DNA of 64,000 nucleotides from Elusimicrobiaceae bacterium. Lineage in GTDB: Bacteria; Elusimicrobiota; Elusimicrobia; Elusimicrobiales; Elusimicrobiaceae. The notes below the pieces were generated by a model, which was given only the letters and a program-made list of their open reading frames with translations, had not been told where the DNA came from and searched no databases. Positions 33,118-43,163 of the stretch are shown one piece after another (the first letter of the stretch is position 1; each line of letters begins with the position of its first letter). A program made the translations under genes and the position numbers. Where the stretch lies: NCBI GenBank assembly GCA_045586725.1, contig JAZNAY010000001.1, positions 74,161-138,160 of the forward strand. The letters are read 5' to 3'.

Positions 33118-36100
33118 TTATGCTTCGCCGAAGTTTTTTATCTCATCTGATTTTAGTTTTATATAATCTGTTTTACCTGTTCCGCCTAAAGGTATTTCTT
33201 CAACTACGCGAAGTGTTTTCGGTATCCAAAGTTCACTAAAACCTTTATCTTTTAAAGCTTGCTGTAAAACTTTTAAATCGGCATCTTGTTTTTGTGTGTA
33301 AGCAATAAGTTGTTCACCGCGTTTTGCATCGGATTTGGAAATTACAGCATGTTTAATATCGGGCCAAATTTCCGTCATAGCAAATTCTATTGCGGTTAAT
33401 GAAACCATTTCACCCGCAATTTTTGCAAAACGTTTTGCGCGGCCTTTCATAACAACAAAGCCGTCGGCGTCAAAGTCCACAATATCGCCGGTATCATACC
33501 AACCATCTTTGAGCGGTTGAATAACACCCGGGTTATCTTCTTTTAAATAACCCAGCATTACATTATCACCTTTAATAAACAGGCGTCCGCCTTCATTAAC
33601 ACCTTCAATTTTTTCAATGCGTGCTTGCATACAAGGTAATAGTTTGCCGACTGTTCCACGCCTGTAATACATTGGTGTGTTAAAAGAAACAACGGGGCTT
33701 GCTTCAGTCGTACCATAGGCCTCTAAAATACGTATACCGAATTTTTCTGTCCATAAAGCAAAAGTTTCATCTTTTAACTTTTCGCCGCCGATGCCTATGT
33801 ATTTAATGTTATAGAAGTCATAAGGATGCGCTTGTTTACCGTAAGCATTTAAGAAAGTATCCGTGCCAAAGAAAACATTTGCGTTTCTATCGTAAACAAG
33901 TTCCGGTATCGCTTTGTAATGCAAAGGTGAAGGATATAAAAACACTGATGCACCGTTTAAAATAGGTATAAATAAACCGCATGCCAAACCGAAACTATGG
34001 AACATCGGCAAAGCGTTAAAGAATTTATCCTGTAAGCCCATTTGAATTAAACTGGACATTTGGTATCTGTTCATATTTAAATTCTTGTGGCTTAACACTA
34101 CACCTTTTGGTGCGCCCTCAGAACCGCTTGTAAATAGCACAACGGCAGGTTTATCTGGGTTTCTATCTTTGCAGGTCATTTTATAAGCCTGGTGGGGGAA
34201 AGCACTTTGTAAAACTGCTATAATTTTGTCAGTTATATTTATAGTTTTCTGTATATCTTCAAGGTAAACTATTTTTGTATCTGTTTGATTTATTGCCTCG
34301 ATAATATTGCCCAGTTCCGCTTTTTGTATAAATGCTCGTGAAGTCACAAGCACTTTAATTTGTGCAACTTTTAATGCAAGCAAAATGTTTTTCACACCTG
34401 CGGAAAAGTTTATCATAGCCGGTACTCTGCCGTATGCCATAAGCCCGAAAATGCTTAAAGCACAAGCGTTAACATTTGGGAGCATTAAACCGATAAACTC
34501 GCCTTCTTTAGAAAATTGTGTAAACTTTCGCCCAAGTAAGAAAGAGCCTGTAAGTAAAGTTCCAAAGGATACGGTTTTACGTGTCATATCTTCCAAAGCA
34601 CGCGTGGAACGGCGTGCAAGGTCCACCGCTTCAATTAAGCAACGGAAAATTGTGTGTTGTAAATTGAAACTTTTTACTTTCATTTCAAGTAATAAATCAT
34701 ATACGGCATCTTCCGCTTTATAGCGGCGGTTGCGGCCTTTTAAAGTGCTTGAAATATTTAATTTTCTTGGCGGTAAAACATTTATTACATATTCCAAATT
34801 ACTGGGCAAATGTCTAAGTTTGCGCCCATAATAAGACCAACGCGTATATTGTGTATTTTGAATAAAAATCGGTAAAACTTGTGCTCCGGAACGTTCAACA
34901 ATCATAGCCGGGCCGGGGTAAACTTTCATTATACCGCTTGTAGTACTCATGCGGCCTTCCGGGAAAATTACAACTTTTGTTCCTTTTTTGACTCTATCAA
35001 TAATTGTTTTAACAGCGATAGCATTTGTAGGGTCAACGGGAATATGGCGAACATATCTCAAAAATATACGTACCCAAAAACGTTTTGCGATAGTGCTGTC
35101 CACCATAAAGACAATGTCTTCCGGTAAAAATGCGGCAAGCAAAAGCGGATCTAAAAATGAATTGTTATTTGCAACTATTACTGTCGGGCCTTCGGCTTTG
35201 GAATAGTTTTCCATACCAACTAATTTAATTTTATAAATACTGTTTAAAAAGAAATATGCTGCAGATCTTAAAACATAATCAGGCAAAAGTGTGCAAGTGT
35301 AAATTGCAATAATAAGGTTTGCCGCTGCAAGAACGGTAATTATCGCCGGTGTGCCAAGCCCTACGTATAATAGAGCATAGGCCACTAATCCGGCAAAAAC
35401 CATAAAGAAAGCATTTAAGAAATTACAGGTTGCAAGCATACGTGTTCTGAATTTATCTGAAAGCATCACCTGCAAATGTGCATTAAGCGGAACAATATAA
35501 AGGCCCCCGCAAATTGAAAGCATAATTATACCCATTGTTAATGCAATGCCGAAGGGGGAACTTAAAAAGAGCGGTAAAGTTATAGGTGCAGCAAAATCTG
35601 GCATTAAGGCTAAAATGAATGCAATAAGCAGTAATGATAGAGACATCCCCACCGTGCTGAAGGGGACATATTTTATGCTGATTTCCGTTTTAACTAAACG
35701 ATAGCAAGCCAAACACCCAATACCTACGGAAACACAGAATACTGTTATCAAAAATGTATAAACTTCCGGTGCAAGATTCAAAATTGAATTTGTAACGCTG
35801 TTAAGTTGTGAAAGTAAAATTGCGGCCACAACCCAAAACCAGTTAATTGCCAAAATTGCCAAAAATAATTTTTTTGATTGATTTGCCCTTGATAAATTGC
35901 GCCAAGTGCTTTTAAAAATGTTTGGAGAAATTTTTACGGCATCTGCAATCGGTGCTAACGGTGTAAACAAACGCGTAACAAGGTAACCAGCAACAGACAA
36001 AATAAGCATAAAACCAAACATTATGCCTAAGTTTAATTTAGGTTCAGCTAAATGTAAACCTATAATTGTACCCAGTAAAATTGCAATATATCTGCTTGAT

Positions 36101-36549
36101 TCTAGCAAAGCGTTACCGTCAATAAATTCGGTTTTCTGCAAAACTTGTGTCATCACGGCATATTTGATAGGCCCAAAGAAAGCGGATTGCGTTCCCATAA
36201 TAAATAAAGCACAGAGCAAAATTATTACAGAGTTTAGATAAAACCCTAAAGCAACAATTAAAACGGTAAAAATTTCAGAAAATTTAATTATACGGGTGAC
36301 TTTTGTTTTATCGTATTTATCACCGATTTGGCCTGCTAATATAGAAAAGATGAAGAACGGTAACATATAAATACCGATTATCATTAAAACTAATTTTGCA
36401 GTTTGCCCACCGTGTAAAGTTAAAATATGTGCGGCAATTAAGGCGGTTAAAGCGGTCCTTATCAAATTATCGTTAATTACACCGCAAACCTGTGCCCAGA
36501 ATAATGCGGCAAAGTCTTTGCCTGCAAGTAATTTTAAAAGTCTTTTCAT
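33118..36549 (-). CDS. triple fusion: MFS lysophospholipid transporter (LplT-like) + 2-acyl-GPE acyltransferase + acyl-ACP synthetase (Aas-like)
   Basis: 1143 aa. The first ~420 aa form 12 TM helices. A PlsC-type acyltransferase block follows (NNNSFLDP ... FPEGR). The C-terminal half is an AMP-binding domain (TSGSEGAPKGV, GYGTTE-like YGTTEAS, GWYDTGD, GKTD). Confidence 0.85.
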   Translation of the reverse strand: MKRLLKLLAGKDFAALFWAQVCGVINDNLIRTALTALIAAHILTLHGGQTAKLVLMIIGIYMLPFFIFSILAGQIGDKYDKTKVTRIIKFSEIFTVLIVALGFYLNSVIILLCALFIMGTQSAFFGPIKYAVMTQVLQKTEFIDGNALLESSRYIAILLGTIIGLHLAEPKLNLGIMFGFMLILSVAGYLVTRLFTPLAPIADAVKISPNIFKSTWRNLSRANQSKKLFLAILAINWFWVVAAILLSQLNSVTNSILNLAPEVYTFLITVFCVSVGIGCLACYRLVKTEISIKYVPFSTVGMSLSLLLIAFILALMPDFAAPITLPLFLSSPFGIALTMGIIMLSICGGLYIVPLNAHLQVMLSDKFRTRMLATCNFLNAFFMVFAGLVAYALLYVGLGTPAIITVLAAANLIIAIYTCTLLPDYVLRSAAYFFLNSIYKIKLVGMENYSKAEGPTVIVANNNSFLDPLLLAAFLPEDIVFMVDSTIAKRFWVRIFLRYVRHIPVDPTNAIAVKTIIDRVKKGTKVVIFPEGRMSTTSGIMKVYPGPAMIVERSGAQVLPIFIQNTQYTRWSYYGRKLRHLPSNLEYVINVLPPRKLNISSTLKGRNRRYKAEDAVYDLLLEMKVKSFNLQHTIFRCLIEAVDLARRSTRALEDMTRKTVSFGTLLTGSFLLGRKFTQFSKEGEFIGLMLPNVNACALSIFGLMAYGRVPAMINFSAGVKNILLALKVAQIKVLVTSRAFIQKAELGNIIEAINQTDTKIVYLEDIQKTINITDKIIAVLQSAFPHQAYKMTCKDRNPDKPAVVLFTSGSEGAPKGVVLSHKNLNMNRYQMSSLIQMGLQDKFFNALPMFHSFGLACGLFIPILNGASVFLYPSPLHYKAIPELVYDRNANVFFGTDTFLNAYGKQAHPYDFYNIKYIGIGGEKLKDETFALWTEKFGIRILEAYGTTEASPVVSFNTPMYYRRGTVGKLLPCMQARIEKIEGVNEGGRLFIKGDNVMLGYLKEDNPGVIQPLKDGWYDTGDIVDFDADGFVVMKGRAKRFAKIAGEMVSLTAIEFAMTEIWPDIKHAVISKSDAKRGEQLIAYTQKQDADLKVLQQALKDKGFSELWIPKTLRVVEEIPLGGTGKTDYIKLKSDEIKNFGEA

Positions 36550-36661: not shown

Positions 36662-37243
36662 ATGTATAAAAAAGGTTTTACTCTTATAGAATTGCTTATG
36701 GTGGTGTTAATTATTGGCATTTTATCAGCAATTGCTTTACCCCAATATAAGAGGGCAATTGAAAAGTCAAGATATGCAGAAATAGAAGAAATGATACACA
36801 ACATACTTAGTGCGGAGCAAAGATATTATCTTGACCATGGCACTTTCACTGACACTTTTAACAAGTTAGATACCGATTTTTCAATCAGCAATGGCGTAAT
36901 ATCCGGAAATCTGTTGCGTACTGATAATATGGAAATTTCAATAGACGCAAAATATATTGAGGCAAGTAGAACTAAAGGAACGCCTAGGGTTGATCTTACT
37001 AGTGTGTATACCATATATGGGGATATGGAAACGGGGAGAATTTTTTGTCAAGATGATATTGAGAAAGATGATATAACTTGTAAATGGTTTGGGCTTGATG
37101 AAATGAAGATGTGTTATGATGACGTCGTTGTAGGTGTAAAAGATCATTGCCCGGACGAGATTTCATCGCAAGAGTCATGCGAAAAGAACGGTTGTTATTG
37201 GGATACTAGTACGAAACCGGAAAGTTGTACATGTAAACCGTAA
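36662..37243 (+). CDS. prepilin-type N-terminal cleavage/methylation domain protein (pilin-like)
   Basis: MYKKGFTLIELLMVVLIIGILSAIALPQY. The C-terminus is Cys-rich (CPDEISSQESCEKNGCYWDTSTKPESCTCKP). Confidence 0.85.
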   Translation: MYKKGFTLIELLMVVLIIGILSAIALPQYKRAIEKSRYAEIEEMIHNILSAEQRYYLDHGTFTDTFNKLDTDFSISNGVISGNLLRTDNMEISIDAKYIEASRTKGTPRVDLTSVYTIYGDMETGRIFCQDDIEKDDITCKWFGLDEMKMCYDDVVVGVKDHCPDEISSQESCEKNGCYWDTSTKPESCTCKP

Positions 37244-37339
37244 TAAAGTATCTTAGGTTAATTTCTAGGGGTTTGTTGGGCTAAAGTTGTACGCTATATT
37301 CATTATGATGTGGATATGGTAATAGAAGAAGTGATTTTT

Positions 37340-37999
37340 ATGTGTAAAAAAGGTTTTACATTAATAGAAATGTTAATTGTTGTTCTTATAATAGGTATTC
37401 TCGTTACCTTGGTATTTCCGCAGTATATGAGATCACTTGAAAAATCAAGGTATTCAGAAGCGGCTGAACTTCTGCGAAGTATCTATACTGCCGAGCAAAG
37501 ATATGCCTTGGAACATAGTGGCTATGCGGAAGATTTTGATGATTTATATCTTGATTTCAGTGATGTTGCTTTGGAAAGGGAGGATAAGTCTACGATTGTC
37601 GTTAAGAATTACAAAATCACGTTACAAAATGCAAATGCTGATATTCCTCTTGTACAGGCAATAAGGGCAAAAGGTGGTAATAATATTTATGGAATATACA
37701 AAAATTTAAGGACAGGTGCTATATTTTGTGAGGATATGTTAGAAAAGGACAATATAACCTGTGATTTGTTTGGTATTTGGAGTTCCCTTAAAACTTGTGA
37801 AGATGGTTCTGTAATTGATAATGGGGAAGAATGTCCGAAAGAAGAACAACAAGAGGAGACACATGTGTGTCCAAATAATTTCGAATGGAATTCTAGCCAA
37901 GGAAAATGTACGCAAATATGTGCTAATCCTCCATGCAAAAAAATCAAGGCGGTTTGTCCATCCGGGTATTCATGGAATCTTACAGAGTGCGTGCAATAA
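37340..37999 (+). CDS. prepilin-type N-terminal cleavage/methylation domain protein (pilin-like), tandem paralog
   Basis: MCKKGFTLIEMLIVVLIIGILVTLVFPQY from the ATG at 37340. Shares EKSRYxE...AEQRY and IFCxDxxEKDxITC with 36662..37243. The C-terminal Cys-rich extension is longer. Confidence 0.85.
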   Translation: MCKKGFTLIEMLIVVLIIGILVTLVFPQYMRSLEKSRYSEAAELLRSIYTAEQRYALEHSGYAEDFDDLYLDFSDVALEREDKSTIVVKNYKITLQNANADIPLVQAIRAKGGNNIYGIYKNLRTGAIFCEDMLEKDNITCDLFGIWSSLKTCEDGSVIDNGEECPKEEQQEETHVCPNNFEWNSSQGKCTQICANPPCKKIKAVCPSGYSWNLTECVQ

Positions 38000-38019: not shown

Positions 38020-38048
38020 AACCCCCGGTTAATGCCGGGGGTATTTTT
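38020..38048. terminator. bidirectional terminator
   Basis: CCCCCGG TTAATG CCGGGGG with T-rich flanks. Confidence 0.7.
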
Positions 38049-39000
38049 ATTTAATAAGTAAAGGGGAAACAAAATTCATAAAGTAGCCAAGCACGATTAT
38101 ACCGATTAAAACTGCCAGGAAAAATGTCGCAAGAAGTTTAATTTTCATTGCACCGCGAAGTATTACGGCTTCGGGCAAACTCATTGCGGAAACAGACATT
38201 AAAAATGCAAGCACCGTTCCAAGCGGTAAGGGGCGCTCAAAAAATATCAAAGCAATAGGTACAACACCGGCGCAACTGCCGTAAATCGGTGCGCCTAAAA
38301 TTGCGGCAAGCGGAACGCTGAAGATACCGCCCGCATTAACTATTTTAACAATACTTTCATCTGAAACATAAATGTTTAAAACTGCACCAAGAGCAACGCC
38401 GGCAAGTATCCAAACCCATAAGCGTTTAACAATTTTTGAACCTTCGTTTGTCCCAAATTTAAGGCGGGCTTTAAAATTTTTATATTCTGGAAAAGTTGGT
38501 TCTTCTTCTATGAAAGCAGGCTCAAGATATTTTGCAAAACCGAGTTTTTCAAGTGTCCAACCAGCTATCATACCTACTGTTATTCCCCCGATAATATAAG
38601 CAACAGTTACAGTTAGACCAAAATATTTCGGCATCAAAACAACCAAATATTCATTGACGAGAGGGGAAACTGCCAAAAAACAAATTGCCGATGCGAACGG
38701 TACGCGCAGTTTAACTAAACTTAAAAATATAGGCACTGATGAACAAGAACAAAAAGGTGTAAAAATAGCAAACATGGCTGCGGCAAAACTGCTTAAAAAT
38801 CGATGTTTGCTTGCAAGATATTTTTCCATCGTTGCTTTTGAAAGATAAGTGCGCAAAACGCCGATAGCACTTATTGCAATAAATAGGATAAGTATGATTT
38901 TAATTGAATCACTAATAAACATTACCGCTGCTTGCCCCCAAGTTGAAGCGGTATCTATGCCAAGCCAAGTAGCCAAAATATAATTAGTTAAAGCGTGCAT
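38047..39000 (-). CDS. ArsP_1 / YraQ-type permease with a vicinal-cysteine motif
   Basis: Polytopic 317-aa protein carrying TPFCSCSSVPIF, the CxC motif characteristic of the ArsP-type permease family. Confidence 0.75.
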   Translation of the reverse strand: MHALTNYILATWLGIDTASTWGQAAVMFISDSIKIILILFIAISAIGVLRTYLSKATMEKYLASKHRFLSSFAAAMFAIFTPFCSCSSVPIFLSLVKLRVPFASAICFLAVSPLVNEYLVVLMPKYFGLTVTVAYIIGGITVGMIAGWTLEKLGFAKYLEPAFIEEEPTFPEYKNFKARLKFGTNEGSKIVKRLWVWILAGVALGAVLNIYVSDESIVKIVNAGGIFSVPLAAILGAPIYGSCAGVVPIALIFFERPLPLGTVLAFLMSVSAMSLPEAVILRGAMKIKLLATFFLAVLIGIIVLGYFMNFVSPLLIK

Positions 39001-39119
39001 TATTCGGCCTTATGATTTTTCTTTTGGCAGTTGCCCTTACCGTCAGCACAATGACAACAGGTGTCTTTTGATTTCTTTTTTAGATAGTTATCTAACTTTT
39101 CAAGTAATTTTTCAAACAT
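39000..39119 (-). CDS. unannotated 39-aa Cys-rich microprotein, translationally coupled to the permease
   Basis: The minus strand encodes MFEKLLEKLDNYLKKKSKDTCCHCADGKGNCQKKNHKAE. AAGGAG lies 7 nt upstream of the ATG. Its stop overlaps the permease start (TAATG). Too short for the ORF track. Confidence 0.4.
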   Translation of the reverse strand: MFEKLLEKLDNYLKKKSKDTCCHCADGKGNCQKKNHKAE

Positions 39120-39229
39120 AAAAACTCCTTACAACTAAACAAATTTTAGCATTTTAGGAGACATAGAACAATTAAAAGAGCGTCAAATTTGGTACAATAT
39201 ACTTGTATAAATTCATTAAAGGAGATTTT

Positions 39230-39931
39230 ATGAGTTGCGAAAAATGTACACCCCACATTGCAAATATGTGCAGTGTCTGTAAAGGCGCAAAACATCAACC
39301 TGCCCCAATTCCCGAAGAAGGCAAATGGGTTTGCGCTAAAGAAATTAAAGATATCAGCGGTTTAACGCACGGTATCGGTTGGTGCGCACCACAACAAGGT
39401 GCTTGCAAATTAACTTTAAACATCAAAAACGGTGTTATTAAAGAAGCTTTAGTTGAAACTTTAGGCTGCAGCGGTATGACACACTCCGCCGCAATGGCAG
39501 CAGAAATTTTGACAGGCAAAACAATTTTAGAGGCATTAAATTCTGACCTCGTTTGTGATGCCATCAATACTGCTATGAGGGAACTTTTCCTTCAAATCGT
39601 ATATGGCCGCTCACAAAGTGCATTTTCAGAAGGCGGTTTAACTATCGGTGCAGGGCTTGAAGATTTAGGTAAAGGCCTCCGCTCCCAAATCGGCACGATG
39701 TATGCAACCGAGGCTAAAGGCCCGCGTTATCTTGAAATGGCAGAGGGCTATGTTCTTGAAGTCGGCCTTGATAAAAACAATGAAATTATCGGCTACAAAT
39801 TTGTAAACCTTGGCAAAATGATGGACGCTATCAAAAAAGGTGAAGATCCAAAAATTGCCTATGAAAAAAATATCAGCAAATACGGGCGCTATGACGAAGC
39901 CGTCAAGAAAATTGACCCGAGGAAGGAGTAA
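39230..39931 (+). CDS. NifU/IscU-like Fe-S scaffold-domain protein with an N-terminal CxxC-x7-CxxC extension
   Basis: The ATG at 39230 follows AAAGGAG. N-terminal Cys knuckles (CEKC...CSVC). IscU-like block ETLGCSGMTHSAAMAAEILTGKTILEAL. Confidence 0.65.
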   Translation: MSCEKCTPHIANMCSVCKGAKHQPAPIPEEGKWVCAKEIKDISGLTHGIGWCAPQQGACKLTLNIKNGVIKEALVETLGCSGMTHSAAMAAEILTGKTILEALNSDLVCDAINTAMRELFLQIVYGRSQSAFSEGGLTIGAGLEDLGKGLRSQIGTMYATEAKGPRYLEMAEGYVLEVGLDKNNEIIGYKFVNLGKMMDAIKKGEDPKIAYEKNISKYGRYDEAVKKIDPRKE

Positions 39932-39934
39932 ACT

Positions 39935-40930
39935 ATGGTAACTTTTGAAGGTTATGAAAGAAGAATTGAGAAAATAAATTCCGTCTTAAAAGAATACGGT
40001 ATTGCCTCCCTTGAAGAAGCAAAAGAAATCTGCACCAAAAAAGGTGTTGATGTCGAATCTATCGTCAAAGGTATTCAGCCTATTGCTTTTGAAAATGCTG
40101 TTTGGGCTTATACAGTCGGCGCTGCAATCGCAATTAAAAGCGGTGTAAAAACAGCAGCGGAAGTAGCAGAAAAAATCGGCGTCGGTTTACAAAGTTTTTG
40201 TATCCCCGGCTCAGTTGCTGATCAACGCGCCGTCGGTTTAGGCCACGGTAATTTGGCTGCAATGTTACTTAGGGAAGAGACAAAATGTTTCTGCTTCTTA
40301 GCAGGCCATGAAAGTTTTGCCGCCGCAGAAGGCGCAATCGGTATTGCAAAAACCGCAAATAAAGTCCGCAAAACACCGCTCCGCGTAATTTTGAACGGGC
40401 TTGGTAAAGATGCGGCTTATATTATTTCAAGGATCAACGGTTTTACTTCTGTTGAAACTAAATATGATTATTATACCGGCAAACTTGAAATTGTTTCAGA
40501 AAAAGCATTTTCCGACGGTGACCGTGCAAAAGTTAAATGCTATGGCGCTGATGATGTAAACGAAGGTGTTGCCATTATGAGGCATGAAGGTGTAGATGTT
40601 TCCATTACTGGTAACTCTACAAACCCGACACGCTTCCAGCACCCCGTTGCCGGCACATATAAAAAATGGGCTGTGGAAAACGGCAAGAAATATTTCTCCG
40701 TTGCATCCGGCGGCGGTACAGGCAGAACTTTGCACCCCGACAATATGGCGGCAGGCCCGGCTTCTTATGGTATGACTGACACCATGGGCCGCATGCATAG
40801 CGACGCACAATTTGCAGGTTCTTCATCAGTTCCCGCACACGTTGAAATGATGGGGCTTATCGGTATGGGTAATAACCCGATGGTAGGCGCCTCAGTAGCA
40901 GTCGCAGTAGCAATTGCCGAGGCAAAATAA
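39935..40930 (+). CDS. GGGtGRT-motif protein (uncharacterised family)
   Basis: 331 aa containing the literal motif ASGGGTGRTLHPDN. It starts 4 nt after the NifU-like gene stop, so the two are probably co-transcribed. Confidence 0.7.
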   Translation: MVTFEGYERRIEKINSVLKEYGIASLEEAKEICTKKGVDVESIVKGIQPIAFENAVWAYTVGAAIAIKSGVKTAAEVAEKIGVGLQSFCIPGSVADQRAVGLGHGNLAAMLLREETKCFCFLAGHESFAAAEGAIGIAKTANKVRKTPLRVILNGLGKDAAYIISRINGFTSVETKYDYYTGKLEIVSEKAFSDGDRAKVKCYGADDVNEGVAIMRHEGVDVSITGNSTNPTRFQHPVAGTYKKWAVENGKKYFSVASGGGTGRTLHPDNMAAGPASYGMTDTMGRMHSDAQFAGSSSVPAHVEMMGLIGMGNNPMVGASVAVAVAIAEAK

Positions 40931-41047
40931 ATAAGTATTTTACTTAACAATAACTCCCCTACGAAAGTGGGGGAGTTTCTTGTTTCTAGTACGGAAATTG
41001 TTAAAGGTTTAATTTTTTTGTAAAATGTGTGTATGCGCACAGTAATT

Positions 41048-41599
41048 ATGAAAAATAAGAACGGTTTTATGTTAATCGAAATATTAGTGGTAGTTTTGAT
41101 TATAGGCATACTTGCAAGCATTGCTTTGCCGAGATATCAAATGGCAGTTGATAAAACAAAATATACAAATCTAATGCCGATAACAAAAACCATACTAGAA
41201 TCTCAATTACGGGCTTTATTGGAAACAGAAAACCCTTCTTTCGAAGATTTAGATATCGGTATACCTGGAAATTGTACGCTGGTTGATGGTCATCCGTGGG
41301 CCATTACTTGTGATGATGGTAGATGGGGTTGCTTAATGAGGAGAAGTGGTGGTACTCCTGTTAGATATTGGACTCGTTGTACTGATGTAGGACTTAATGC
41401 TTCTTATTTTTATACCATAAACATGGGGTCATCGGATGTTTCTGCGCGATGTTATGCCCATACTACGGAAGATGATGATAGGCCCAATCGTTTATGTAAG
41501 GCACTTACAAATAAAGAAAATCGTGAAGCAAGGGAAGGTATTGCCATGTTTTGGCAACCTAACGGCCCTTGGGTTCAATCAAACGGATATTCTTTTTAG
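41048..41599 (+). CDS. prepilin-type N-terminal cleavage/methylation domain protein (pilin-like)
   Basis: MKNKNGFMLIEILVVVLIIGILASIALPRY from the ATG at 41048. A C-terminal LCKAL motif is shared with 24882..25409 (VCKAL). Confidence 0.85.
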   Translation: MKNKNGFMLIEILVVVLIIGILASIALPRYQMAVDKTKYTNLMPITKTILESQLRALLETENPSFEDLDIGIPGNCTLVDGHPWAITCDDGRWGCLMRRSGGTPVRYWTRCTDVGLNASYFYTINMGSSDVSARCYAHTTEDDDRPNRLCKALTNKENREAREGIAMFWQPNGPWVQSNGYSF

Positions 41600-41696: not shown

Positions 41697-41769
41697 GGGC
41701 CATTAGCTCAGTTGGTAGAGCAGACGCCTCTTAAGCGTAAGGTCGAGAGTTCGAGTCTCTCATGGCCCA
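41697..41769 (+). tRNA. tRNA-Lys (anticodon CTT)
   Basis: Cloverleaf: GGGCCAT/ATGGCCC acceptor, D arm GCTC-AGTTGGTA-GAGC, anticodon loop CTCTTAA, T arm GAGAG-TTCGAGT-CTCTC. A TATAAT lies about 10 nt upstream. Confidence 0.9.
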
Positions 41770-41791: not shown

Positions 41792-41873
41792 GGACGGGTG
41801 GCGGAATCGGCAGACGCGTACGCCTTAGGAGCGTATGGAGCAATCCGTGAGGGTTCAAGTCCCTCTCCGTCCA
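41792..41873 (+). tRNA. tRNA-Leu (anticodon TAG)
   Basis: Acceptor GGACGGG/TCCGTCC, anticodon arm TACGC-CTTAGGA-GCGTA, 13-nt variable arm, T arm GAGGG-TTCAAGT-CCCTC. Confidence 0.9.
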
Positions 41874-41891
41874 AACTATCAGGAGCATAAA

Positions 41892-43163
41892 ATGTCAGAA
41901 GACGGAAAACAAAATATTACCACAAAACAAATTTCAAAAGAAGGCTGCACCGTTGTTTTAGCAGTTACCGCTAATGCAACTTTGGTTAATGAGTGCTTTC
42001 ATAATGCCACATTACAAGTACAAAGCCGCGCCCAAATGCAAGGTTTTAGGGCAGGTAAAGTTCCTTTAGATTTAGTTAAGAAAAATTTTTCAGGCCATAT
42101 TATTGAGCGCACTTTGGATACCATTATCCGCCGTGCTTCTTTAGTTGCCTTACAAGAAACAAAATTAAATGCAGTTATGGCACCTACCGTCAGCAAAGCA
42201 GATTTCAGTGCTTTAAAAGAAAATGAACCCTTTACTTTTGAAATGACAGTAGACATCGCCCCTGAATTTGAACCGAAAGACTATATCGGTATTAAAATTA
42301 CTAAAAAAGACAATGCCGTTAAACCTGAAGATATAAAAAACCATATCAATTCTGTCCTTGAAAATAATGCTACTTTGGAAGCCGCTAAAGAGGATGAAGG
42401 CGTTTGTGATACAAGTTATGTAATCGTCAGTTATACAGGTAAGAAAAACGGTGAGCAAGACAAAAAATATACCGCGAGAAGCGAAATGATTGATATGTCT
42501 GCCCCGCAAACAATTGCCGGCCTTGCCGACAATTTAAAAGGTATGAAGAAAGGGGAAACAAAAACTTTTGAAATCAAAGAAGAGGAAACCCCTGTTGAAA
42601 TTACCGCTACTGTTGAAGAAATTAAAAATAAAGTTTTGCCTACTTTAGATGATAAATTTGCTAAAGATATGGGCTTTGAAAATGTTGAAAAACTTGAAGC
42701 ACATGTCAAAGAGGCTTTGGAACATGAAGCAAAACATAAAGCCGATAGGGATGTAACCGCTCAAATTGAAGATGCTTTGGTTAAAGCCAATGATTTTGCT
42801 TTACCTAAATCTTTAGTTGATTATCACACCAATTTGTCCGTTGAAAACTTTATTCAAAGGATGTTCGGCGGCAGAACGGCAAATATCCCTGAAGAAAACC
42901 GCAAAACATTTGTTCAAAAGATGCGCCCTTCCGTTGAAAAAGATTTGAGAATCGGCTATATCATCCACGCCATTGCAAATAAAGAAAATATCGCCGCAAC
43001 AGATGCTGACCTCAAAGAAGAAATGGATAATGCCTTGAAAAATTCCCCTAAAGAGGCGGAACAAATCAAGCAATTCTTCGAAACACGCAAAGATGATATT
43101 TTAGCAACAATTAAAGAAAGAAAAGTGTTTACTTTCTTAAAAGAAAAAGCAAATATTGCTTAA
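41892..43163 (+). CDS. tig: trigger factor
   Basis: 423 aa from the ATG at 41892 (RBS AGGAG). Ribosome-binding N-domain motif GFRAGKVP, then PPIase-like and C-terminal arm regions. The longer ORF-track start overlaps tRNA-Leu. Confidence 0.9.
   Translation: MSEDGKQNITTKQISKEGCTVVLAVTANATLVNECFHNATLQVQSRAQMQGFRAGKVPLDLVKKNFSGHIIERTLDTIIRRASLVALQETKLNAVMAPTVSKADFSALKENEPFTFEMTVDIAPEFEPKDYIGIKITKKDNAVKPEDIKNHINSVLENNATLEAAKEDEGVCDTSYVIVSYTGKKNGEQDKKYTARSEMIDMSAPQTIAGLADNLKGMKKGETKTFEIKEEETPVEITATVEEIKNKVLPTLDDKFAKDMGFENVEKLEAHVKEALEHEAKHKADRDVTAQIEDALVKANDFALPKSLVDYHTNLSVENFIQRMFGGRTANIPEENRKTFVQKMRPSVEKDLRIGYIIHAIANKENIAATDADLKEEMDNALKNSPKEAEQIKQFFETRKDDILATIKERKVFTFLKEKANIA

What the first reader, a model, noticed from the sequence alone, without database searches (positions are those of the whole stretch)
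39230..40930. NifU/IscU-like scaffold protein paired with a GGGtGRT-motif protein: a conserved but functionally uncharacterised two-gene module
Two tightly linked genes with a 3-nt gap.

- The first has an IscU-type block (LGCSGMTHSAAMAAEILTGKTILEAL) plus an extra N-terminal CxxC-x7-CxxC knuckle and several more Cys.
- The second (331 aa) carries the literal SGGGTGRT motif that gives the GGGtGRT family its name. It also has conserved Cys/His contexts (FCIPGS, KCFCFLAGHES). To my knowledge no biochemical function has been assigned to that family.

No other isc/suf/nif genes are nearby. The pair therefore looks like a self-contained Fe-S or metal/sulfur-handling system rather than part of general cluster biogenesis.
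Basis: partly seen in the sequence, partly recalled or inferred. Interest (0 to 1): 0.65.

Follow-up and report, generated by a model that had tools for sequence, protein, structure and literature searches.

The report
Conserved two-gene iron-sulfur enzyme candidate
Two back-to-back genes in a gut Elusimicrobia genome encode an IscU-like cysteine-rich protein and a 'GGGtGRT' protein; the pair always travels together, is almost unchanged across many phyla of strict anaerobes and is very abundant in gut bacteria, yet its function is still unknown.

Summary
39230-39931 (233 aa) and 39935-40930 (331 aa) form a two-gene operon with a 3-nt gap, a ribosome-binding site for gene 2 inside the end of gene 1, and a terminator.

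- **Gene 2:** a full-length PF14057 GGGtGRT protein (E = 4e-199).
- **Gene 1:** only a distant IscU relative, just below Pfam's cut-off. It lacks IscU's Asp39, LPPVK and His105-Cys106. It has four invariant Cys, one invariant His and an extra 120-aa C-terminal domain.
- **Pairing:** in 80 species from about ten phyla plus a methanogen, the partner lies directly upstream wherever the contig allows (77/77). No third gene recurs.
- **Conservation:** 43% of GGGtGRT positions are invariant, but it has no invariant Cys.
- **Structure:** the AlphaFold model (pLDDT 80) shows a helical domain plus a Rossmann-like domain. It has no significant match in PDB. The most conserved 45 residues are not confidently modelled.
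- **Literature:** function unknown up to 2026. The proteins are abundant, strongly iron-induced and dispensable in vitro in B. thetaiotaomicron.
- **Divergent clade:** it sits in operons with phosphoglycerate mutases and phosphatases.

Best reading: a two-subunit iron-dependent enzyme, not a cluster-assembly scaffold, possibly acting on phosphoglycerate-type compounds. This copy is an ordinary member of a known, uncharacterised family.

The parts
39218..39224 (+). Shine-Dalgarno AAAGGAG, 5 nt before the ATG of gene 1
   Evidence: Read directly from the sequence. Upstream regions of homologues show the same strong GAAAGGAG-type sites and short leaders.
39230..39931 (+). Gene 1: IscU-like partner protein, 233 aa
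   Evidence: ORF. NifU_N 21.2 bits against cut-off 22. Thousands of homologues, 79-99% identical among the best 120. Directly upstream of GGGtGRT in 77/77 informative loci.
39236..39280 (+). N-terminal CxxC-x7-CxxC knuckle (C3, C6, C14, C17), a clade-specific decoration
   Evidence: Coordinates. Present only in the Elusimicrobia-type rows of alignment A3; absent from the Clostridia, Bacteroidales, Akkermansia and divergent-clade rows.
39359..39568 (+). IscU-like core (residues 44-113) holding invariant H47, C52, C59, C80 and C109
   Evidence: A profile of A3 against PDB hits IscU/NifU chains at best E = 2.8e-4, over residues ~44-113 only. Invariant columns.
39569..39928 (+). C-terminal domain of the partner (residues 114-233), no known family
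   Evidence: No Pfam hit even at E <= 10. No PDB sequence relative. Contains invariant Y125-G126-R127, E172-G173-Y174 and others.
39920..39928 (+). Shine-Dalgarno AGGAAGGAG for gene 2, inside the last codons of gene 1; implies translational coupling
   Evidence: Sequence reads ...AGGAAGGAG TAA ACT ATG.
39935..40930 (+). Gene 2: GGGtGRT protein, 331 aa
   Evidence: PF14057 E = 3.8e-199, model positions 1-327 of 327. 92-99% identical proteins in Elusimicrobiaceae.
39935..40270 (+). GGGtGRT N-terminal all-helical domain (residues 1-112), including invariant G101-x-G103-H104
   Evidence: AlphaFold2 model 2: helices 7-112, pLDDT mostly 75-97. Invariants.
40271..40705 (+). Rossmann-like alpha/beta domain (residues 113-257). 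Conserved strand-end loops: AGHESFAAAEGA (123-134), GLGKDAA (155-161), TGNSTNPTRF (225-234).
   Evidence: Secondary structure and pLDDT. Best local Foldseek match is T. brucei phosphofructokinase: prob 0.97, 152 columns, TM 0.25, E 0.03, not significant. Invariants.
40706..40846 (+). The most conserved stretch (residues 258-304): SGGGTGRTLHPDN...GMTDTMGRMHSDAQFAGSSSVPAHVE. Predicted as an unstructured loop.
   Evidence: Nearly every position is invariant across 80 species and in the divergent clade. pLDDT is below 50 for residues 260-303 in the better model.
40847..40927 (+). C-terminal helices (residues 305-331), including the invariant GNNP of GMGNNPMVG
40952..40987 (+). Intrinsic terminator: 11-bp stem (6 GC pairs), 4-nt loop, T-rich tail, 22 nt after the stop of gene 2

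Best explanation
The two genes form one operon and encode the two subunits of a conserved, abundant, iron-dependent enzyme of strict anaerobes. It is not a general Fe-S assembly system.

- **Small subunit (inferred).** It has an IscU-type fold that has been turned into a permanent holder of an Fe-S (or other metal) centre. The ligands would be four invariant Cys (C52, C59, C80, C109) and His47. It has lost the features that make IscU a transient scaffold. It has gained a 120-aa domain that probably docks it on the large subunit.
- **Large subunit, GGGtGRT (partly shown, partly inferred).** It has a helical domain and a Rossmann-like domain. The invariant loops at the strand ends (AGHES, GLGKD, TGNSTNP, SGGGTGRT...HPDN...MGRMH...AGSSSVPAHVE) would form a pocket binding phosphate and metal. 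The 45-residue invariant loop would fold only around the partner's cluster and/or the ligand, giving a composite active site.
- **Substrate class (least certain step, about 0.2 on its own).** A phosphorylated three-carbon acid such as 2- or 3-phosphoglycerate, in or beside lower glycolysis.

Shown here: operon anatomy, family membership, strict pairing, conservation pattern, and the lack of a known fold. Inferred: complex formation, cluster binding, catalysis, substrate.
For: Operon:
- 3-nt gap, internal SD and terminator.

Pairing:
- 77/77 adjacency across about ten phyla.
- The pair is also present in a Methanobacteriaceae contig.
- It is retained in the divergent clade.
- The two proteins' pairwise-identity matrices are correlated (r = 0.67; 0 of 999 permutations reach it).
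- No third recurrent neighbour, and no cysteine desulfurase among the recurrent families.

Partner is not a canonical scaffold:
- Below the Pfam and NCBIfam cut-offs.
- C59 is followed by K-L where IscU has G-D39.
- The LPPVK/His105-Cys106 segment is missing.
- Four Cys and one His are invariant.

GGGtGRT looks like an enzyme:
- 43% of positions are invariant over 80 species. The invariant positions concentrate in loops after the beta-strands of a Rossmann-like domain.
- No invariant Cys.

Iron dependence and abundance (literature):
- B. thetaiotaomicron BT0173-74 is down 11-13-fold on iron depletion (PMC10434189).
- The C. pasteurianum GGGtGRT protein is 7.1-fold higher with iron (PMC5395762).
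- It is highly expressed in vivo in several phyla (PMC11204068; PMC7035244).
- It was the target of a monoclonal antibody reactive to S. copri (PMC12078515).

Not the housekeeping Fe-S system:
- Transposon mutants of BT0173-4 grow normally on glucose (PMC13081976).

Substrate hint:
- In five divergent-clade operons, whose GGGtGRT proteins are 65-70% identical to the query P0267, the pair sits with ApgM-type iPGM. ApgM passes the NCBIfam equivalog cut-off twice.
- One of these operons also has GpmI-type iPGM (656 bits against a cut-off of 331). They also carry histidine phosphatases and a phosphoglycolate-phosphatase-like HAD enzyme.
- BT0173-4 insertions came out of the same glucose-signalling screen as pfkA.
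Against: - No experiment shows a complex, a cluster or an activity.
- The complex could not be modelled here.
- AlphaFold gives no confident structure for the key loop, and Foldseek finds no homologous enzyme to lean on.
- The main clade, including this window, shows no recurrent link to glycolytic genes.
- The phosphoglycerate hint comes only from a small divergent clade in what look like accessory or mobile regions (HTH, transposase).
- The B. thetaiotaomicron effect on Roc is only 2-fold and may be indirect.
- Iron-dependent expression fits any iron protein.
- Four Cys on an IscU fold could bind Zn (as in SufU) rather than Fe-S.
Confidence: 0.45

Rival explanations
1. The pair is a dedicated Fe-S (or iron/sulfur) assembly, carrier, storage or repair system, essentially the first reader's view. 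The IscU-like protein assembles or holds clusters from free sulfide and iron. GGGtGRT acts as its accessory factor, for example a nucleotide-driven loader or releaser, serving abundant Fe-S clients in anaerobes.
For: - The partner's only detectable relatives are IscU/NifU/SufU.
- Gly-rich SGGGTGRT and GLGKDAA loops could bind a nucleotide.
- Expression follows iron supply.
- The pair is confined to anaerobes, many living in sulfide-rich guts.
- It is dispensable when SUF is present.
Against: - Scaffold hallmarks are missing: Asp39, LPPVK, His105-Cys106, and the family cut-offs.
- No cysteine desulfurase, chaperone or client gene recurs next to it in 130 neighbours.
- SGGGTGRT is not a Walker A motif: Arg replaces Lys, and no confident helix follows it in the model.
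- Very high cellular abundance and extreme conservation of the whole 331-aa protein are unusual for an assembly factor (the last point is inference).
Confidence: 0.25
2. The pair is an abundant redox or stress-protection protein of anaerobes, in the manner of rubrerythrin, flavodiiron protein or Hcp. It would detoxify oxygen, peroxide, nitric oxide or a related reactive species. The IscU-like subunit would feed electrons to a His/carboxylate metal site in GGGtGRT.
For: - Invariant His104, 125, 267, 288 and 302, with invariant Asp/Glu and no invariant Cys, would suit a non-Cys metal site.
- It is co-listed with rubrerythrins among commonly and highly expressed proteins.
- It is co-regulated with Fe proteins, and discussed alongside hcp in the B. 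thetaiotaomicron iron study.
- Neighbours include rubredoxin in the archaeal locus and flavodiiron-type genes upstream in 3 loci.
- It is strictly anaerobic in distribution.
Against: - No fold or sequence similarity to any known detoxifying enzyme.
- The neighbour links are sporadic: 3 of 64, and 1 locus.
- The phosphate-type Gly-rich loops and the phosphoglycerate-mutase operons of the divergent clade are not explained.
- No stress-regulation data were found.
Confidence: 0.15
3. The two proteins work independently and are merely co-transcribed, for example an unrelated enzyme next to a small metal-binding protein.
For: No direct evidence of physical contact was obtained. No natural fusion was found; the only 'fusion' in the databases is an assembly chimera.
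Against: - 77/77 adjacency in the same order and strand across phyla and in archaea.
- Retained in the 55%-identity divergent clade, where the genes overlap.
- Coupled translation signals.
- Correlated divergence.
Confidence: 0.05

Closest known systems
PF14057 GGGtGRT family with its NifU-like neighbour, e.g. Bacteroides thetaiotaomicron BT0173-BT0174
   Same: Same family (full-length HMM match) and the same two-gene arrangement. The Bacteroidaceae and Bacteroidales loci recovered here are 81-85% identical. BT0173-BT0174 itself is described in PMC10434189 and PMC13081976.
   Different: Nothing essential. The Elusimicrobia partner has an extra N-terminal CxxC-x7-CxxC knuckle that most other members lack. 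The family itself has no assigned function.
IscU / NifU N-terminal domain Fe-S scaffold (PF01592, TIGR01999) and SufU
   Same: Detectable similarity over about 60-70 residues, including the GC(S/G)G loop with the Cys63 equivalent (C80) and a Cys-bearing loop near the Cys37 position.
   Different: - Below all curated cut-offs.
- No Asp39, LPPVK or His105-Cys106.
- The third and fourth Cys (C52, C109) are at new positions.
- It has a 120-aa C-terminal domain of unknown fold.
- No desulfurase partner recurs among the neighbours.
Two-subunit [4Fe-4S] (de)hydratases of anaerobes, e.g. L-serine dehydratase alpha/beta, tartrate dehydratase TtdAB, two-subunit class I fumarase. This is an analogy from general knowledge, not homology.
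   Same: Two co-translated subunits of roughly 220 and 300 aa. These enzymes are oxygen-sensitive, iron-dependent and abundant in anaerobes, and act on small hydroxy-acids. This is what the pair may 'work like'.
   Different: No sequence or fold relationship was found. In those enzymes the cluster Cys lie in the catalytic subunit. Here all invariant Cys are in the small IscU-like subunit.
Phosphofructokinase-type and other Rossmann-like phosphate-binding domains (best local Foldseek matches)
   Same: The alpha/beta domain (residues ~118-257) superimposes locally on T. brucei PFK: prob 0.97, 152 columns. The domain has Gly-rich loops at its strand ends.
   Different: E = 0.03 and TM 0.25, which is not significant. 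The PFK GGDGS motif is not conserved at the position I matched to it by eye: YGADD here, YGAHS in the divergent clade. The N-terminal domain and the 258-304 loop have no counterpart.
Divergent GGGtGRT clade (P0267, P0391-P0407) in operons with phosphoglycerate mutases
   Same: The same two proteins, at 55-60% and about 50% identity, with all the active-site-type loops invariant.
   Different: Embedded in operons with ApgM, a ~320-aa membrane-anchored protein, His_Phos_1, and sometimes GpmI or a HAD phosphatase, next to HTH regulators. The window's copy stands alone.

Membership tests
PF14057 GGGtGRT | Full-length match to the family HMM above the gathering score | tested here: met
   660.9 bits against a cut-off of 27, model positions 1-327 of 327.
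PF14057 GGGtGRT | The eponymous GGGtGRT motif and a length of about 330 aa | tested here: met
   SGGGTGRT at residues 258-265, 331 aa. The motif is invariant in 48 diverse members.
IscU/NifU_N scaffold (PF01592; TIGR01999, TIGR03419, TIGR01994) | Score above the curated family cut-offs | tested here: not met
   Pfam 21.2 against 22. NCBIfam 20.5-26.1 against 92.5-192.4.
IscU/NifU_N scaffold | Three cluster-ligand Cys at the canonical positions (E. coli C37, C63, C106) with His105 | tested here: not met
   - C80 aligns with C63.
- C52 and C59 flank the C37 position but do not coincide with it.
- The alignments end before the His105-Cys106 region, and no Cys or His follows C109.
IscU/NifU_N scaffold | Cluster-labilising Asp39 and the LPPVK chaperone-binding motif | tested here: not met
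   The sequence after C59 is K-L. There is no LPPVK-like segment in any of 20 aligned partners. The residue roles are from general knowledge of IscU.
IscU/NifU_N scaffold | Genomic association with a cysteine desulfurase (IscS/NifS/SufS) or other isc/suf/nif genes | tested here: not met
   None among the window genes checked from about 25.5 to 53.4 kb. None among the families that recur in 64 upstream and 66 downstream neighbours. Single occurrences outside the top-25 lists cannot be excluded.
P-loop NTPase (Walker A GxxxxGK[ST]) | Walker A consensus between a beta-strand and an alpha-helix | tested here: not met
   SGGGTGRT has Ser at position 1 and Arg in place of Lys. It follows strand 254-257, but the segment after it is not modelled as a helix.
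Phosphofructokinase / GGDG-motif kinases | Significant fold match and a conserved GGDG(S/T) motif | tested here: not met
   Foldseek E = 0.03, TM 0.25. At the position matched by eye only G204 is invariant; the sequence is YGADD or YGAHS.
Any solved protein fold (PDB) or viral predicted fold (BFVD) | Foldseek E <= 1e-3 or a PDB sequence hit | tested here: not met
   0 matches at E <= 0.001 in PDB for both models, and 0 in BFVD. No PDB sequence or profile hit. Caveat: residues 260-303 are poorly modelled.
Heteromeric Fe-S enzyme (proposed working class) | Physical complex of the two proteins and a bound Fe-S cluster | not testable with these tools
   Only indirect support: 77/77 adjacency, coupled translation, correlated divergence. 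No multimer prediction was available, and no biochemistry.

The most novel reading that the evidence does not exclude
An IscU-fold protein has been recruited as the permanent cluster-bearing subunit of a previously unrecognised two-subunit enzyme. Its large subunit (GGGtGRT) has no known fold relative. The enzyme would carry out an iron-dependent step on phosphoglycerate-type intermediates in the central metabolism of strict anaerobes, which would explain why it is among the most conserved and abundant proteins of gut bacteria.
Probability: 0.25. Interest if true: 0.85.

Novelty: new member of a known kind. Interest (0 to 1): 0.55.

Why it matters
**A conserved, abundant unknown.** GGGtGRT and its partner are a 'known unknown' of unusual weight.
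- They occur in at least about 600 species.
- Members include Clostridia, Bacteroidales, Akkermansia, Treponema, Elusimicrobia, Melainabacteria, Planctomycetes, Actinobacteria, Deltaproteobacteria-type lineages and gut methanogens.
- They are 75-90% identical between phyla.
- They are repeatedly seen among the commonly detected or highly expressed proteins in gut and rumen metaproteomes.
- They respond strongly to iron.

**What assigning a function would do.** It would fill a gap in the metabolic maps of most gut anaerobes. It could also show a new use of the IscU fold.

**What this work adds for experiments.** It narrows what to test:
- the four invariant Cys and one His of the partner;
- the absence of invariant Cys in GGGtGRT;
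- the invariant loop that stays unmodelled;
- the phosphoglycerate-mutase link in a divergent clade.

Tried and rejected
1. **PDB relatives of GGGtGRT.** Single-sequence and profile searches found nothing usable.
2. **Fold search.** I ran it on two AlphaFold2 models.
   - The first used a 12-sequence alignment (pLDDT 64.6) and was too poor.
   - The second used 48 sequences including the divergent clade (pLDDT 80.1). It still gave no hit at E <= 1e-3 in PDB or BFVD.
   - Weak recurring hits to thymidine phosphorylase/TrpD, CooS-V, GT-B transferases and PFK were considered. I did not accept them as homology.
3. **Domain-wise Pfam scans at E <= 10.** These covered the three GGGtGRT segments and the partner's C-terminal domain. 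No second family appeared.
4. **Third conserved gene.** ORF clustering and Pfam counts of 130 neighbours found none. PduL, SecA, TyrRS and flavodiiron genes recur only 3-6 times, consistent with local synteny among related Clostridia.
5. **Defence-system reading.** No meaningful PADLOC hit: none for seven of the eight proteins scanned, including both window proteins, and one marginal PtuB hit (E 0.0056) for a neighbouring 304-aa protein.
6. **Riboswitch or leader upstream.** Rfam found none in 36-44 kb of the window. Homologues have short leaders with plain promoter-like boxes.
7. **Natural fusions of the two proteins.** The only candidate (P0269) is a chimera joined at a microhomology. Several longer database entries are duplicated or frameshifted assemblies.
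8. **RNA-seq evidence of co-transcription.** Only DNA metagenome runs hold this sequence.
9. **Literature.** Searches for 'GGGtGRT', PF14057 and BT0173/BT0174 returned only omics mentions and explicit statements that the function is unknown.
10. **Motif readings rejected.** Walker A, radical-SAM (no CxxxCxxC) and pyruvoyl self-processing were rejected. For pyruvoyl: the antibody clone name SC-L10B5-35K1 hints at a ~35-kDa band, which I read as suggesting an unprocessed protein. This is weak.
Full report
**1. What is in the window**

Positions 39230-39931 (+) encode a 233-aa protein and 39935-40930 (+) a 331-aa protein.
- The ORF listing starts the first ORF at a TTG at 39203.
- Gene 1 ends ...AGG AAG GAG TAA. 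Then come ACT and the ATG of gene 2. Gene 2's ribosome-binding site therefore lies inside gene 1 and the gap is 3 nt.
- A good intrinsic terminator (11-bp stem, T tail) follows 22 nt after gene 2.

This is a two-gene operon. Its neighbours are unrelated:
- Upstream and divergent: an ArsP_1-type permease, preceded by a 39-aa Cys-rich ORF.
- On both sides: type IV pilin-like genes.
- Downstream: two tRNAs, then trigger factor, AdhE and FeoAB.

The closest proteins are from Elusimicrobiaceae ('Candidatus Avelusimicrobium') of animal guts. The DNA is found only in gut metagenomes.

**2. Family placement**

Gene 2 is a textbook PF14057 GGGtGRT protein: E = 3.8e-199, full model length. No NCBIfam model covers it.

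Gene 1 is only a distant IscU relative.
- NifU_N scores 21.2 bits against a cut-off of 22.
- NCBIfam IscU, NifU and SufU models score 20-26 bits against cut-offs of 92-192.
- A 20-sequence profile hits IscU/NifU chains in PDB at E = 2.8e-4, over residues ~44-113 only.

Alignment of 20 partners, including the most divergent ones, shows invariant H47, C52, C59, C80 and C109.
- C80 is the GC(S)G cysteine of IscU.
- C52 and C59 flank the position of IscU Cys37 without coinciding with it.
- The residue after C59 is Lys, not the Gly-Asp39 of IscU.
- The LPPVK/His105-Cys106 segment is absent.
- Residues 114-233 have no detectable relative.
It is confined to Elusimicrobia-type sequences.

**3. The pairing is strict and the module is self-contained**

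- The 80 loci kept come from Elusimicrobia, many Clostridia, Bacteroidales, Akkermansia, Melainabacteria/Gastranaerophilales, Planctomycetia, Treponema, Eggerthellaceae, Polyangiaceae and Desulfobacteraceae.
- By tblastn the partner is directly upstream on the same strand in 77. The other three are truncated by a contig end.
- A Methanobacteriaceae contig carries an archaeal-type DNA ligase. It also has the pair, with a rubredoxin gene downstream.
- The pairwise-identity matrices of the two proteins are correlated (r = 0.67; 0 of 999 permutations reach it). They diverge, or are transferred, as a unit.
- Clustering all ORFs of the loci, and Pfam counts of 64 upstream and 66 downstream neighbours, reveal no third recurrent gene. 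No cysteine desulfurase appears among the recurrent families. PduL, SecA, TyrRS and flavodiiron genes recur 3-6 times, and phage integrases occur 5 times downstream.

**4. Conservation is extreme, and it corrects one point of the finding**

- In a library clustered at 50% identity the whole family collapses into very few full-length representatives. Most other listed entries are fragments, frameshifts or chimeras.
- Across the 80 species, GGGtGRT proteins are 75-92% identical to the window's and partners 62-90%. 43% of GGGtGRT positions and 36% of partner positions are invariant.
- When the divergent clade is added (48 sequences), about 95 positions stay invariant. They include H104, H125, H267, H288, H302, K158, K244, several Arg, Asp and Glu, and almost all of residues 257-318. 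No cysteine is among them.
- C89 of FCIPGS, and C118 and C120 of KCFCF, are replaced in other members.

All the invariant Cys of the system are therefore in the small subunit.

**5. Structure**

- With 12 close sequences AlphaFold2 gave pLDDT 64.6.
- With 48 sequences including the divergent clade it gave pLDDT 80.1 and pTM 0.81.
- The better model has a helical domain (residues 7-112) and a Rossmann-like alpha/beta domain (118-257). The invariant motifs AGHESFAAAEGA, GLGKDAA, TGNSTNPTRF and SGGGTGRT all follow beta-strands.
- The most conserved 45 residues (260-303) stay below pLDDT 50. Two C-terminal helices follow.
- I read the unmodelled invariant loop as a segment that orders only on a ligand, metal or partner. 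This is inference.
- Foldseek found no match at E <= 1e-3 in PDB or BFVD. The best local similarity is to the PFK Rossmann-like domain (prob 0.97, TM 0.25, E 0.03).
- PDB sequence and profile searches were empty.

**6. What the literature says**

- No paper in the library assigns a function. Papers from 2024 and 2025 say explicitly that the function is unknown.
- BT0173-BT0174 of B. thetaiotaomicron are down 11-13-fold on iron depletion (PMC10434189).
- The C. pasteurianum protein is 7.1-fold higher with excess iron (PMC5395762).
- GGGtGRT and 'NifU' are highly expressed in vivo in several phyla (PMC11204068, PMC7035244).
- A monoclonal antibody reactive to S. copri recognises it (PMC12078515).
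- Transposon insertions in BT0173-4 do not impair growth on glucose. They raise the Cur-dependent Roc protein 2-fold, in the same screen that recovered pfkA (PMC13081976).

**7. A divergent clade gives the only functional context**

- Searching with the 54%-identical representative P0267 revealed a small clade (P0391-P0407).
- Five of its operons were examined; their GGGtGRT proteins are 65-70% identical to P0267.
- All five keep the partner. It is about 50% identical to the window's, lacks the knuckle, and its gene overlaps the GGGtGRT gene.
- At least four add a ~320-aa protein with no family match, which by inspection has an N-terminal hydrophobic segment. The fifth contig is cut off just after the GGGtGRT gene.
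- All also add an ApgM-type cofactor-independent phosphoglycerate mutase (517 and 491 bits against the equivalog cut-off of 489) and a histidine phosphatase.
- One locus adds a GpmI-type iPGM (656 bits against 331). Another adds a phosphoglycolate-phosphatase-like HAD hydrolase.
- HTH regulators lie nearby.
- Gene order differs between these loci, so the link is not one copied island.
- All the active-site-type loops are identical to those of the main clade. The chemistry is probably shared, but whether the substrate is shared is uncertain.

**8. Interpretation**

The most economical reading is a two-subunit, iron-dependent, oxygen-sensitive enzyme.
- The IscU-fold subunit carries a permanent Fe-S (or metal) centre on four Cys and one His.
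- GGGtGRT supplies a phosphate- and metal-binding pocket built from its strand-end loops.
- The invariant loop closes over the partner's centre.

Evidence against a general or dedicated cluster-assembly role:
- The scaffold hallmarks are missing.
- No desulfurase or chaperone neighbour recurs.
- The proteins are highly abundant.
- The B. thetaiotaomicron mutants are viable.

A stress-protection role is possible but has only sporadic support.

A substrate of the phosphoglycerate type is suggested by the divergent operons and, weakly, by the glucose-signalling phenotype. I give that step about 0.2 on its own. No part of the mechanism has been shown experimentally.

**9. Verdict**

The pair is a self-contained, uncharacterised module. 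'Scaffold' and 'conserved Cys in GGGtGRT' do not hold.
- This copy is an ordinary member of a known but functionally unassigned family pair, so it is not new as a kind.
- Its interest lies in how conserved and abundant this unknown is, and in the concrete experiments that the anatomy now suggests.

Noticed in passing
window 39000-39119 (-) and 38047-39000 (-): A 39-aa Cys-rich ORF (MFEKLLEKLDNYLKKKSKDTCCHCADGKGNCQKKNHKAE). Its TAA stop overlaps by one base the ATG of the downstream ArsP_1-type permease (PF03773; weak SaoE and SO_0444 Cu/Zn-efflux similarity). This may be a small metal-binding peptide translationally coupled to an efflux permease. It has no Pfam hit. It is divergent from the pair, and the linkage is not conserved: the related Elusimicrobiales locus L001 has a different upstream gene.
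   Followed up: partly
L081-L094 (e.g. L081:3997-8606, L089:391-6859, L093:842-6141): A divergent GGGtGRT/IscU-like clade sits in operons with one or two cofactor-independent phosphoglycerate mutases (ApgM, GpmI). These operons also carry a histidine phosphatase, sometimes a phosphoglycolate-phosphatase-like HAD enzyme, a ~320-aa protein with no family match and a likely N-terminal membrane anchor, and Xre-type HTH regulators. One has a transposase nearby. Several phosphoglycerate-mutase-type genes in one cassette is odd and unexplained.
   Followed up: partly
loci L001-L080, immediately downstream of the GGGtGRT gene: Phage-integrase-family genes are the nearest downstream neighbour in 5 of 66 loci. 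In the window two tRNA genes lie about 770 nt downstream (41697-41769, 41792-41873). Nearby tRNA genes, rather than the GGGtGRT gene itself, may be the integration targets.
   Followed up: no
protein database entries P0241, P0269, P0352, P0345, P0408, P0409: Many 'GGGtGRT' entries in public protein sets are internally duplicated, frameshifted or chimeric. P0269 joins the partner to GGGtGRT at a short microhomology. These are probably assembly artefacts: the gene is nearly identical in co-occurring species, which confuses metagenome assemblers.
   Followed up: partly
window 36662-37243, 37310-37999, 41027-41599 (+): Three type IV pilin-like genes with N-terminal methylation motifs and Cys-rich C-termini flank the operon. 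From memory this fits the many pseudopilin genes of Elusimicrobia.
   Followed up: no
window 33118-36549 (-): A 1143-aa fusion of an MFS transporter, an acyltransferase and an AMP-binding domain. From memory it resembles Aas/LplT-type lysophospholipid transport and re-acylation proteins.
   Followed up: no
window 41792-41873 against 41835-43163 (+): The mechanical ORF for trigger factor starts inside the second tRNA gene. The true start is probably the later Met (MSEDGK..., about 41889).
   Followed up: no
L088:4048-6138: A Methanobacteriaceae contig carries the same pair at about 80% identity to bacterial copies, next to a rubredoxin gene. This points to inter-domain transfer among gut anaerobes.
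   Followed up: partly
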